Shown here: piece after piece, positions 6,793 through 7,447 of the stretch
Numbering within the stretch: the stretch's first letter is position 1
Layout: each line of letters opens with the position of its first letter
The notes under the pieces: generated by a model
What the model saw: the letters and a program-made list of their open reading frames with translations, nothing else
What the model was told of the DNA's origin: nothing
Databases searched by the model: none
Translations under genes and position numbers: made by a program
Source: a virus
DNA: 33,990 bases
Direction: 5' to 3' (one strand)
UHGV virus genome: UHGV-0171993

Positions 6793-7099
6793 GATATCCT
6801 TTGTACTGTTTATGCATACAGCACTTTACATCATGTACTCCAAAGTATCTATCTTGTGAAGAATCTTACACTAAATACTACAGAAAAAGTTAACGCGTAC
6901 GCAAAAAGTATTATATCGTGTTAAGAGTGGTTACTTCGCCACACAGCTTAAACCCGCTCGACAGCGAGTTTTTTAGTGTCCGAAAAGCGGACCCAGCACG
7001 GTAAACGCGCTGGTGGTTGCGAATACTGGTCTTTAAGCTTGCTGGCTTTTTGGACAAGAGTTATTGGTATGTCACGTTAACCAGAAAAGGGAAAAAGAC

Positions 7100-7297
7100 A
7101 TGCTAAAACAGCAGGATATGACCGAAACCGCCAGAGTGGTGTTTAATGAGTTAAGCGTCACCGAACCGGCGACAGTCGGGGAAATTGCGCAGAATACGTA
7201 CCTTTCACGCGAACGCTGCCAGTTAATACTGACCCAGCTTGTTATGGCGGGTCTGGCAGATTATCAGTTCGGTTGTTACAGACGCCTTCCGCAGTGA
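7100..7297 (+). CDS. Small protein (65 aa), possible winged-helix DNA-binding regulator
   Basis: ATG 7100 with AAGGG 8 nt upstream; ...ATVGEIAQNTYLSRERCQLILTQLVMAGLAD... has HTH-like character; stop lies within a terminator hairpin. Confidence 0.35.
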   Translation: MLKQQDMTETARVVFNELSVTEPATVGEIAQNTYLSRERCQLILTQLVMAGLADYQFGCYRRLPQ

Positions 7298-7307
7298 AGG
7301 CTTTTTT
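7284..7307 (+). terminator. Rho-independent terminator overlapping the stop of the 7100..7297 gene
   Basis: gccttc-cgcagt-gaaggc hairpin followed by TTTTTT. Confidence 0.5.
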
Positions 7308-7447
7308 ATTTGTGGTAATGGGCGGCTGGTGGGTGTTAGCGGCACCTGCCAGCCATCTGCTCATGCGTTGGGGTCACAAGCAAACCTCAGGCCCATCTGC
7401 TTTGCGCAAAAGCAGAATGAGCCTATCAGAGAAGTGCTTATTGATCT

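What the first reader, a model, noticed from the sequence alone, without database searches (positions are those of the whole stretch)
7060..7310. Small possible winged-helix protein between the cargo operon and the methyltransferase, divergent from the cargo operon
The 65-aa ORF at 7100-7297 has HTH-like character and its stop codon sits inside an intrinsic terminator hairpin (7284-7307). It is transcribed divergently from the cargo operon, whose start is about 300 bp away, so it could be a dedicated regulator (controller-protein-like) for the methyltransferase or a repressor of the adjacent operon.
Basis: inference. Interest (0 to 1): 0.4.

Follow-up and report, generated by a model that had tools for sequence, protein, structure and literature searches.

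The report
Small winged-helix partner of phage methylase
The 65-codon ORF is a real, strongly conserved winged-helix protein gene that in enterobacterial prophages almost always sits just upstream of a toxic, non-specific DNA adenine methylase (M.EcoGII type), usually separated from it by an unusually conserved structured RNA leader, so it is probably part of that enzyme's control device and not a regulator of the neighbouring Kiwa defence genes.

Summary
ORF 7100-7297 is a real gene: synonymous sites are saturated against homologues while the protein stays about 85% identical. It folds as a confident winged helix (pLDDT 93), and its stop codon lies in a terminator-like hairpin (7284-7301 plus a T-run).

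The window is a lambdoid prophage. A Kiwa defence pair sits between gene Q and the late promoter PR'. PR' and its terminator tR' (about 6885-6975) lie between Kiwa and the ORF, so the ORF belongs to the Q-dependent late operon.

The ORF's constant partner is the downstream methylase, which is 85% identical to M.EcoGII, a non-specific adenine methylase that is toxic and silent in lysogens. The two genes are adjacent in 23 of 24 genome loci, 102 of 111 informative viral contigs, and 54 of 54 in a Providencia-type clade. The upstream neighbour varies.

The roughly 140-nt spacer is more conserved than either gene. It shows plus-strand RNA covariation, has no Rfam match and no Shine-Dalgarno sequence.

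Best reading (about 0.45): a dedicated gate on methylase expression, comparable in logic to Mu com-mom. The mechanism is inferred, not shown. It is not a C-protein, and there is no link to Kiwa.

The parts
5000..5359 (+). Antiterminator Q gene (context: defines the late operon)
   Evidence: PF06530 Phage_antitermQ E 2.9e-45; phrog_79.
5381..6792 (-). Kiwa defence pair (kwaB-like 5381-6265, kwaA-like 6271-6792).
   Evidence: PF16162 KwaB 30.6 bits against a 26.3 cut-off. NCBIfam KwaA E 6e-12, below its cut-off. RefSeq annotation of 99% identical E. coli copies.
6885..6935 (+). Late promoter PR' / Q-utilisation region. Approximate and inferred.
   Evidence: The block TAACGCGTACGCAAAA...TGTTAAGAGTGGT is shared with loci carrying the same Q type (L014, L025, L126). 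It lies directly upstream of tR' and the holin in L206. Loci with other Q types carry their own promoter type at the same place, for example the lambda-like AACGATGGG.
6956..6975 (+). tR'-type intrinsic terminator, and the mosaic joint of the module
   Evidence: Terminator scan. A GC hairpin plus T-run is present at this position in nearly all related loci. E. coli Q-Kiwa matches end at 6957-6972.
7038..7075 (+). Conserved block upstream of the ORF (CTTGCTG-N11-CAGAGTTAYNTGTRTG; the window variant is CAAGAGTTATTGGTATG). Role unknown.
   Evidence: Found once per locus, 29-38 nt before the ORF's ATG, in all three clades. Absent from loci without the ORF. No sigma-70 consensus match on the + strand here.
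7100..7297 (+). The finding: gene for a 65-aa stand-alone winged-helix protein (phrog_331; databases name it 'TrmB family' or 'DprA-like WH')
   Evidence: Purifying selection. AF2 pLDDT 92.9. Foldseek winged-helix matches. phrog_331 E 1.4e-37. Invariant helix 3, CQLILTQLxMAGL, and N-terminus, MLKQxDMTE.
7284..7311 (+). Hairpin (7284-7301) plus T-run (7302-7311). Terminator-like, and it contains the ORF's stop codon.
   Evidence: Compensatory changes in homologues. Among 129 distinct sequences, the tail is T-rich in 53, intermediate in 31 and has no T-run in 6; 39 have no perfect hairpin.
7309..7447 (+). Conserved structured leader of the methylase: three-way junction P1-P2-P3, hairpins P4 and P5, an invariant GATC just before the ATG, and no Shine-Dalgarno sequence
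   Evidence: More conserved than the flanking genes. Covariation and G-U pairs specific to the + strand. Covariance model hit at window 7309-7453, 134.7 bits. Nothing in Rfam overlaps it at E up to 10. Fold z-score -3.6.
7448..8494 (+). M.EcoGII-family non-specific DNA adenine methyltransferase (beta class)
   Evidence: PF01555 E 1.8e-44. 85% identical (296 of 347) to the M.EcoGII sequence given in the supplement of PMC11551740. 86% identical to the phage 1720a-02 methylase, which PMC5778455 names as very similar to M.EcoGII.
8663..8816 (+). tRNA-Thr and tRNA-Gly (context: the end of the accessory block before the lysis genes)
   Evidence: ARAGORN and Rfam.

Best explanation
The ORF is the first gene of a conserved accessory module of lambdoid late operons. 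The module reads: small winged-helix protein, then a hairpin/terminator, then a roughly 140-nt structured RNA leader, then an M.EcoGII-type non-specific adenine methylase. It is inserted between PR'-tR' and the lysis genes.

Shown: the gene is real and under strong protein-level selection. It is a stand-alone winged helix. It is almost always immediately upstream of this methylase family whatever lies further upstream. The spacer is a conserved plus-strand RNA structure with no Shine-Dalgarno sequence.

Inferred: the protein is a dedicated gate on expression of the toxic methylase. The gene pair can only be transcribed efficiently by Q-modified RNA polymerase, which reads through tR' and the second hairpin. 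I propose that the methylase is then translated only once the winged-helix protein has accumulated and acted on the leader. That would be a threshold device keeping leaky prophage transcripts from producing methylase. It is the logic of phage Mu com-mom, built from unrelated parts. Whether the protein binds the leader as RNA, the same region as DNA, or the enzyme itself is not resolved.
For: Real gene: pS 0.60-0.89 against pN 0.08-0.39, and synonymous codons vary freely at invariant residues.

Fold: AF2 pLDDT 92.9 with winged-helix Foldseek matches.

Linkage: the methylase lies 142-154 nt downstream in 23 of 24 genome loci from Escherichia, Salmonella, Klebsiella, Kluyvera, Citrobacter, Buttiauxella, Mixta, Mangrovibacter and Providencia, and also in phiP27. 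It is linked in 102 of 111 informative viral copies and 54 of 54 in the Providencia-type clade. The most distant homologue, at 42% identity, still sits between an antiterminator gene and a 61%-identical methylase.

Methylase identity and toxicity: 85% identical to M.EcoGII. M.EcoGII is silent in the lysogen and deleterious when expressed (PMC5778455), and a 2025 review pairs it with Mom (PMC12707154).

Leader: the core is more than 90% identical where synonymous sites are saturated. 86.7% of cells are paired against 33-46% in slid controls, and 16 pairs carry double changes. The region around the start codon is predicted to be mostly paired, with mean unpaired probability 0.37. Thr4 of the methylase is the codon ACT in 88 of 89 Thr-bearing sequences (91 distinct sequences in all).

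Correlation: helix 3 is invariant wherever the leader is present, and it has diverged (CEFLLTQFEIAGF) in the one clade that lacks the leader and has a terminator plus a normal SD instead.
Against: No binding, expression or genetic data exist, so the direction (activator or repressor) and the target are inference.

The family is mildly acidic (median pI 5.1, net charge mostly -1 to -3), which is unusual for a small nucleic-acid-binding protein.

Winged helices usually bind DNA rather than RNA, and this one has no dimerisation element.

Five viral copies have leader plus methylase without the ORF (one of them, L075, holds only 276 nt upstream), and four have the ORF without the methylase. The partnership is therefore not obligatory.

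M.EcoGII is active when cloned alone (PMC5778455), so the protein is not needed for catalysis.

The leader-less clade shows that the ORF-methylase pairing does not require the leader.

The covariance counts come from an alignment fitted to the model.
Confidence: 0.45

Rival explanations
1. A DNA-binding transcriptional regulator of the module. In this reading it is C-protein-like in logic only. The winged helix binds double-stranded DNA, at the conserved block 7038-7075 and/or at palindromic P4 (GCTTTAGCGCTAAAGC in most homologues). It then autoregulates the gene pair or represses read-through into the methylase.
For: The fold is that of MarR, IclR and TrmB DNA-binding domains. Block 7038-7075 is strictly linked to the ORF and lies at a fixed distance upstream of it. 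P4 is a near-perfect DNA palindrome in most sequences.
Against: No promoter consensus was found for it to control between tR' and the methylase. In lambdoid phages Q-modified polymerase drives late transcription (my own knowledge of the family). The protein is acidic and has no dimerisation element. The leader's variation pattern, with G-U pairs on the + strand only, points to RNA rather than operator DNA. Block 7038-7075 is unchanged in the clade whose helix 3 has diverged.
Confidence: 0.2
2. A protein-binding partner of the methylase: an inhibitor, chaperone or antitoxin-like modulator. The winged helix would serve as a protein-interaction module rather than bind nucleic acid.
For: The family is acidic while the methylase is basic (pI 5.1 against 8.1). 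It has an invariant, probably flexible N-terminal peptide, MLKQxDMTE (pLDDT about 74), conserved at the protein level. The top Foldseek hits include winged-helix dimerisation domains of SAM-dependent O-methyltransferases. The pairing survives loss of the leader. A terminator between the two genes would give an excess of the first product.
Against: The gene spacing of about 150 nt with a structured leader is unlike toxin-antitoxin pairs. No fused (Rosetta-stone) proteins were found. A constitutive inhibitor made from the same transcript would defeat the purpose of the methylase in the lytic cycle. The Foldseek similarity is generic (E about 2e-3).
Confidence: 0.18
3. The protein has a function unrelated to the methylase, for example host takeover or another late function. 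The linkage would only reflect joint inheritance of a mobile module.
For: Function has not been tested. phrog_331 is 'unknown function'. Nine viral copies have one gene without the other.
Against: The linkage persists through saturation of synonymous sites, through exchange of Q types and upstream cargo, and through replacement of the spacer. That is hard to explain without selection on the pair.
Confidence: 0.12
4. One reading: a repressor of the divergently transcribed Kiwa operon.
For: Only the divergent geometry and the 307-bp distance.
Against: PR' and tR' lie between them. 99%-identical Q-Kiwa-PR'-tR' blocks occur with no such ORF, joined directly to the holin. Most homologues of the ORF have no Kiwa upstream.
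Confidence: 0.02

Closest known systems
Phage Mu com-mom (a small translational activator gene upstream of a toxic DNA-modification gene)
   Same: A small gene sits immediately upstream of, and is co-transcribed with, a toxic phage DNA adenine-modifying enzyme that is silent in lysogens. There is a structured mRNA region around the enzyme's start, and several control layers are stacked. The parallel between Mom and M.EcoGII as silent and toxic enzymes is drawn in PMC12707154. The details of Com come from my own knowledge.
   Different: Com is a zinc-finger RNA-binding protein, whereas this is a winged helix without a Cys4 site. Here the genes are about 150 nt apart rather than overlapping. Transcription depends on Q antitermination, not on the Mu C protein or Dam/OxyR. 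RNA binding and activation are not shown here.
Controller (C) proteins of restriction-modification systems
   Same: A small DNA-binding-fold protein encoded just upstream of a DNA-modification gene. The idea of delayed or threshold expression is the same.
   Different: C proteins are Xre-type helical HTH dimers that act on C-boxes and control restriction genes. Here there is no HTH_3 match, the fold is a winged helix, there is no restriction gene, and the methylase is an orphan.
MarR / TrmB / IclR-type winged-helix domains
   Same: The fold is the same: H1-H2-H3 plus a wing. Foldseek TM-score normalised to the query is up to 0.87. Weak Pfam hits also agree.
   Different: All Pfam scores are below the family cut-offs. 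The protein has 65 residues and no dimerisation or ligand domain. It is acidic. The family is narrow: 61 representatives among 1.84 billion proteins.
M.EcoGII (the neighbour, not the ORF)
   Same: 85% identity over the full length, with the same beta-class layout: DPPY, then the central recognition domain, then FxGxG.
   Different: The specificity of this particular copy has not been tested. The M.EcoGII papers I read do not describe the upstream ORF or the leader.
Lambda late leader (PR' - 6S RNA - tR')
   Same: A Q-type-specific promoter followed by an intrinsic terminator directly downstream of Q, read through only by Q-modified polymerase (layout seen; mechanism from my own knowledge).
   Different: That element lies upstream of the finding, at 6885-6975. 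The ORF's own hairpin is a second terminator-like site, specific to this module.

Membership tests
Winged helix-turn-helix fold | Three-helix bundle with a helix-turn-helix, followed by a beta-hairpin wing | tested here: met
   AF2 pLDDT 92.9: helices at 9-16, 26-33 and 37-49, strands at 53-56 and 59-62. Foldseek matches MarR, IclR and other winged helices, TM-score 0.6-0.87.
Pfam TrmB (PF01978) / MarR_2 (PF12802), the names carried in databases | Score at or above the family's curated gathering threshold | tested here: not met
   TrmB 18.0 bits against 25.6; MarR_2 14.7 against 27; DprA_WH 14.4 against 22.9. No NCBIfam hit. The 'TrmB family' label is a fold-level resemblance only.
Winged-helix transcription factors | Sequence-specific DNA binding | not testable with these tools
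   There is only indirect evidence. For: an invariant helix 3. Against: acidic pI 5.1 and no dimerisation element.
R-M controller (C) proteins | Xre-type (HTH_3) all-helical fold | tested here: not met
   No HTH_3 hit for the ORF at E up to 1. The predicted fold has a beta wing.
R-M controller (C) proteins | Part of an operon with a restriction endonuclease gene | tested here: not met
   The neighbours are Kiwa, PR'/tR', an orphan M.EcoGII-type methylase, tRNAs and lysis genes. The same holds in related loci.
Mu Com-type translational activators | Zinc-finger (Cys4) RNA-binding protein | tested here: not met
   There are only two cysteines (C40 and C59) and the fold is a winged helix.
Mu Com-type translational activators | Gene directly upstream of, and co-oriented with, a toxic DNA-modification gene whose start lies in an inhibitory mRNA structure | tested here: inconclusive
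   Position and orientation are met. The leader is a conserved structure with no SD, and the start region is predicted to be mostly paired. Inhibition and its relief have not been tested.
Intrinsic (rho-independent) terminator, for 7284-7311 | GC-rich stem-loop immediately followed by a T-run | tested here: met
   A 6-bp stem with 4 GC pairs, a 6-nt loop and the tail TTTTTTATTT. Among homologues the T-run is strong in 53, intermediate in 31 and absent in 6 of 129 distinct sequences, and 39 have no perfect hairpin.
M.EcoGII family (neighbouring gene) | Close full-length sequence similarity to M.EcoGII and the beta-class motif order | tested here: met
   296 of 347 residues identical. PF01555 across residues 29-340. 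Non-specific activity of this copy: not testable with these tools.
Known RNA families (Rfam 15), for the leader 7309-7447 | Match to a curated covariance model | tested here: not met
   No match at gathering thresholds. At E up to 10 over 6780-7520, the only two weak hits lie upstream of the leader.

The most novel reading that the evidence does not exclude
The roughly 140-nt leader (7309-7447) is a new class of cis-regulatory RNA. Together with the small winged-helix protein it forms a translational switch for a toxic, non-specific adenine methylase. In that case a winged helix would act as an RNA-binding activator, making this a Com/Mom-like device evolved independently. A second version is that the leader is a riboswitch-like sensor, for example of SAM or SAH, with the protein as a second input.
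Probability: 0.25. Interest if true: 0.7.

Novelty: new variant of a known kind. Interest (0 to 1): 0.5.

Why it matters
M.EcoGII is a widely used tool enzyme. It is also a striking case of a phage enzyme that must stay off in the lysogen. The papers I could read note that it is silent and toxic but give no mechanism.

This finding identifies concrete candidates for that control:
- a dedicated small winged-helix protein (phrog_331, until now 'unknown function' or mislabelled 'TrmB family');
- a second terminator-like hairpin;
- a strongly conserved structured leader with no Rfam family.

All three sit behind the Q-dependent PR'-tR' gate. The question of how a non-specific DNA/RNA methylase is kept harmless until lysis therefore becomes directly testable with simple reporter and binding experiments.

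The module is also common in Shiga-toxin phages, where it lies between Q and stx (phiP27, 1720a-02 and many Stx2a phages). It is therefore part of the transcript that carries the toxin genes.

If the protein turns out to be an ordinary autoregulator, the result is modest. The gene itself is already annotated, and the fold is ordinary.

Tried and rejected
**N-terminally extended ORF (TTG at 7064, 77 aa).** Rejected, because homologues have an in-frame stop just upstream of the ATG.

**A hidden protein-coding gene in the 150-nt spacer.** Rejected. The alignment has single-base indels, frame 2 has stops at 7316, 7337 and 7418, and no ORF ends at the TGA before the methylase ATG.

**An antisense promoter inside the first methylase codons (TTGACT-16-TACAGT on the minus strand).** The -10 is conserved but the -35 is not. 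I have not pursued it as an explanation.

**The minus strand as the functional strand of the leader.** Rejected, because many pairs are G-U on the + strand and would be A-C on the other. The minus-strand fold is also weaker (z -2.8 against -3.6).

**Known RNA families.** None match. The weak P9 hit at 6949-7027 on the minus strand is just the tR' hairpins.

**Ribosome-dependent attenuation at the stop-codon hairpin as the general mechanism.** Not general. The hairpin is absent in the Providencia-type clade, and it lies 21 nt past the stop in the L209 clade.

**Rosetta-stone fusions of the ORF with a methylase.** The two long hits are spurious low-complexity matches.

**Block 7038-7075 as a sigma-70 promoter or a conserved hairpin.** There is no convincing match, so it remains unexplained.

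**Specific structural relatives (DpnI-type m6A-reading winged helix, Z-alpha).** Only generic winged-helix matches at E about 1e-3.

**Literature on regulation of M.EcoGII or on this ORF.** Nothing was found in the held library.
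Full report
**What is at the coordinates.**

The sequence at 7100-7297 is an ATG-initiated ORF of 65 codons ending in TGA. An SD-like AAGGGA lies 7 nt upstream.

The consensus scan finds a terminator-like site at 7284-7301: a 6-bp stem GCCTTC/GAAGGC and a 6-nt loop, followed by TTTTTTATTT. The TGA straddles the loop and the 3' arm. The region as a whole has 7 such sites against 3.1 +/- 1.9 expected, so the site alone is weak evidence. Its recurrence in homologues is what counts.

**Is it a gene?**

Yes. The protein has 334 homologues at E <= 1e-3 in the large collection, and 510 with a profile. They are typically 63-65 aa and come from Escherichia, Shigella, Salmonella, Klebsiella, Citrobacter and related genera. 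Sources name them 'TrmB family transcriptional regulator' or 'DprA-like winged helix'.

Against homologues from other genera, synonymous sites are saturated (pS 0.60-0.89). Non-synonymous differences stay at 0.08-0.39.

At the invariant residues the synonymous codons vary freely. For example, Thr45 uses all four codons and Leu47 uses six. The constraint is therefore on the protein.

The family is narrow: 61 representatives at 50% clustering among 1.84 billion proteins. PHROGs holds it as phrog_331, 'unknown function'.

**Fold.**

Pfam gives only sub-threshold winged-helix hits (TrmB 18 bits against a 25.6 cut-off).

AlphaFold2 on a 30-sequence alignment gives pLDDT 92.9 with the canonical order H1 (9-16), H2 (26-33), H3 (37-49) and a beta-hairpin wing (53-62).

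Foldseek against the PDB and against viral models returns only generic winged-helix domains at E about 1e-3, with TM-score up to 0.87. These include MarR-type OhrR and SarZ, IclR N-domains, and the winged-helix dimerisation domains of O-methyltransferases.

There is no room for a dimerisation domain.

Two protein features stand out:
- Helix 3 is invariant as CQLILTQLxMAGL, and the N-terminal peptide MLKQxDMTE is near-invariant across clades that are otherwise only about 50% identical.
- The family is mildly acidic, with median pI 5.1 and net charge mostly -1 to -3.

**What the neighbourhood really is.**

The window is a lambdoid prophage. In order it holds hok/sok, RusA and Q (5000-5359); a Kiwa pair on the minus strand (5381-6792); the ORF; a DNA methylase (7448-8494); two tRNAs; and then lysis and morphogenesis genes.

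Many complete E. coli genomes carry a 99%-identical Q-Kiwa block. Their match to the window stops at 6957-6972, and none covers 80% of 5300-7500.

In one of them, the sequence identical to window 6793-6960 is followed by a terminator and then directly by the holin gene. So 6885-6975 is the late promoter region PR' with its terminator tR'. Kiwa is a cargo insertion between Q and PR'.

Alignment of the upstream regions of 20 related loci shows the same layout everywhere:
- first, a promoter type that goes with the local Q type, including clear lambda-type ones with AACGATGGG;
- then a GC hairpin with a T-run;
- then the module that starts with the ORF.

The ORF is thus a late-operon gene downstream of tR'. 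Its 'divergence' from Kiwa is an accident of where the cargo landed.

**The constant partner is the methylase.**

In 23 of 24 loci recovered from one-genome-per-species contigs, and in phage phiP27, a homologue of the 348-aa methylase starts downstream of the ORF. The gap is 142-154 nt wherever the ORF is intact. The upstream neighbour varies: different Q families, a GIY-YIG gene, or other cargo.

A scan of viral contigs with a 20-mer from the spacer gave 121 copies:
- 102 have both genes;
- 10 are cut by contig ends;
- 5 have spacer plus methylase without the ORF (one of these, L075, holds only 276 nt upstream);
- 4 have the ORF with a truncated spacer joined to a different gene.

A second scan, aimed at the divergent Providencia-type variant, gave 54 of 54 informative copies with both genes.

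The most distant detectable homologue (42% identity) again lies between an antiterminator gene and a methylase that is 61% identical to the window's.

**What the methylase is.**

It is 85% identical (296 of 347) to M.EcoGII, using the sequence printed in the supplement of PMC11551740. It is 86% identical to the phage 1720a-02 enzyme, which the M.EcoGII paper names as very similar.

M.EcoGII methylates adenine in any context in DNA, and also in RNA. It is not expressed in the lysogen and is harmful when expressed constitutively (PMC5778455). A 2025 review groups it with Mu Mom as 'silent in lysogens and toxic' (PMC12707154).

I found no description of how it is kept silent.

**The spacer is the most conserved thing in the locus.**

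Where synonymous sites of both flanking genes are saturated, the core of the spacer is more than 90% identical. Examples are AATGGGCGGCTGGTGGGTGTT, GGTCACAAGC.AACC, GCCCAC, AAAGC and GATCTATG.

It has single-base indels and no conserved reading frame.

RNAalifold and a covariance model (R1) support a three-way junction (P1 enclosing P2 and P3) followed by two hairpins, P4 and P5.

On 66 distinct sequences, 86.7% of cells are paired, against 33-46% when partners are slid by 1-3 columns. Sixteen pairs show changes on both sides. Examples:
- P3 has C-G, U-A and A-U at one position, and U-A against C-G at another.
- P2 has G-C against A-U, and G-C against U-A, in the Providencia-type clade.

Many pairs alternate with G-U, which only works on the plus strand. 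These counts come from an alignment fitted to the model, but the same compensatory changes are visible in the raw MAFFT alignments.

Further properties of the leader:
- Nothing in Rfam 15 matches it, even at E = 10.
- There is no Shine-Dalgarno sequence before the methylase ATG.
- The bases just upstream of the ATG and codons 4-5 are predicted to be paired.
- Thr4 is the codon ACT in 88 of the 89 sequences that have Thr there, out of 91 distinct sequences.
- An invariant GATC lies 5 nt before the ATG.

**The hairpin.**

In the Escherichia, Salmonella and Klebsiella clade the hairpin overlapping the stop codon is kept by compensatory changes: GCCTTC/GAAGGC, GCCTCC/GGAGGC and GCTGCC/GGCAG.

The T-run varies. 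Among 129 distinct sequences it is strong in 53, intermediate in 31 and absent in 6, and 39 have no perfect hairpin.

Loci without the ORF still have a hairpin at that place. In L091 it is tR' itself.

In the Providencia-type clade there is no hairpin. There the ORF's stop codon lies 0-6 nt before, or inside, the leader's first conserved box CTGTGAAAATGGGCG.

In the most distant clade the leader is missing altogether. The 73-nt spacer is a classic terminator followed by a normal SD (AAGGA), the methylase lacks its first ~12 residues, and R1 finds nothing. In that clade the otherwise invariant helix 3 has diverged to CEFLLTQFEIAGF. This is one clade only, but it is the pattern expected if helix 3 reads something in the leader region.

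**An ORF-linked upstream element.**

A block, CTTGCTG-N11-CAGAGTTAYNTGTRTG (window 7038-7075), occurs once per locus. It lies 29-38 nt before the ORF's ATG in all three clades, and it is absent where the ORF is absent.

It does not match the sigma-70 consensus, and I could not find a conserved helix in it. I leave it unexplained.

**How it most likely works.**

Shown: the gene, its fold, the synteny, the identity of the methylase, the structured plus-strand leader, and the position behind PR'-tR'.

Inferred: the three parts form one control device for a dangerous enzyme.
- Without Q, transcripts from PR' stop at tR'. Anything that leaks through meets a second hairpin and a leader that offers the ribosome no SD and a partly paired start.
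- With Q, polymerase reads through both. The small protein is made first, and I propose that it then acts on the leader to allow, or to tune, translation of the methylase.

This is the threshold logic of Mu com-mom, and of C proteins, realised with a winged helix and a new RNA. I put about 0.45 on 'dedicated gate of the methylase'.

Within that reading, RNA-level activation, DNA-level repression and direct protein binding remain open. The acidic charge of the family is a real argument for the last of these.

The idea that the protein regulates Kiwa is essentially excluded.

**Known or new.**

The ORF is annotated in databases, and its fold is ordinary. The M.EcoGII family is well known.

I did not find the following described in Rfam 15, PHROGs, NCBIfam or the held literature:
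- the near-obligate pairing of phrog_331 with M.EcoGII-type methylases;
- the conserved structured leader;
- their placement immediately behind tR'.

I rate it a new variant of a known kind of system: a small regulator plus a structured leader gating a toxic phage DNA-modification enzyme. Interest is moderate.

Noticed in passing
window 7309-7447 (+): A roughly 140-nt non-coding element between the ORF and the methylase is more conserved than either gene. It shows plus-strand RNA covariation (a three-way junction plus two hairpins), has no Shine-Dalgarno sequence and has no Rfam match. It is a candidate new cis-regulatory RNA of M.EcoGII-type methylases.
   Followed up: yes
window 7038-7075 (+); for example L004:3939-3971 and L209:2931-2963: A conserved block, CTTGCTG-N11-CAGAGTTAYNTGTRTG, always lies 29-38 nt upstream of the ORF's ATG and is absent where the ORF is absent. 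It is not a sigma-70 consensus match and has no obvious helix. Its role is unknown.
   Followed up: partly
window 5381-6792 (-): A Kiwa defence pair (kwaB-like and kwaA-like) is inserted between gene Q and its own late promoter PR'. Other loci carry different cargo at the same spot (GIY-YIG in phiP27, a DUF2971 protein, and others), so the Q-PR' gap looks like a cargo hot spot.
   Followed up: partly
window 6957-6972: The mosaic joint falls inside the tR' hairpin. 99%-identical E. coli Q-Kiwa-PR' blocks diverge from the window exactly here and continue into the holin gene. No complete E. coli genome in the collection has the window's combination.
   Followed up: partly
window 7443-7462: An invariant GATC lies 5 nt before the methylase ATG. 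Synonymous variation is suppressed in methylase codons 4-5 (Thr4 is ACT in 88 of 89 Thr-bearing sequences), so the nucleotide-level constraint runs into the coding region.
   Followed up: partly
L207-L210 (for example L209:2780-3300): A distant clade keeps the ORF (42% identity, helix 3 diverged) and the methylase (61% identity, first ~12 residues missing). The structured leader is replaced there by a 73-nt spacer holding a classic terminator and a normal SD. This is a natural leader-less control.
   Followed up: partly
window 7100-7294 and family members: The winged-helix family is mildly acidic (median pI 5.1, net charge mostly -1 to -3). The neighbouring methylase is basic (pI 8.1).
   Followed up: partly
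L020, L129 and L147-L205: In the Providencia-type clade there is no hairpin. The ORF's stop codon lies 0-6 nt before, or inside, the first conserved box of the leader (CTGTGAAAATGGGCG), so a terminating ribosome would sit on the 5' strand of P1.
   Followed up: partly
window 1978-2152 (+): A hok/sok-type locus in the early region of the prophage (Rfam sok, 118 bits).
   Followed up: no
window 8663-8816 (+): tRNA-Thr(TGT) and tRNA-Gly(TCC) lie directly after the methylase. In Stx phages, tRNAs and stx genes sit at this position (phiP27 has ileZ, argO, then stx2e).
   Followed up: no
L042, L080, L106 and L125: In four viral contigs the leader is cut after P2/P3 and joined to an unrelated 237-aa ORF in place of the methylase. 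In two of them (L106 and L125) the winged-helix gene is also frameshifted.
   Followed up: partly
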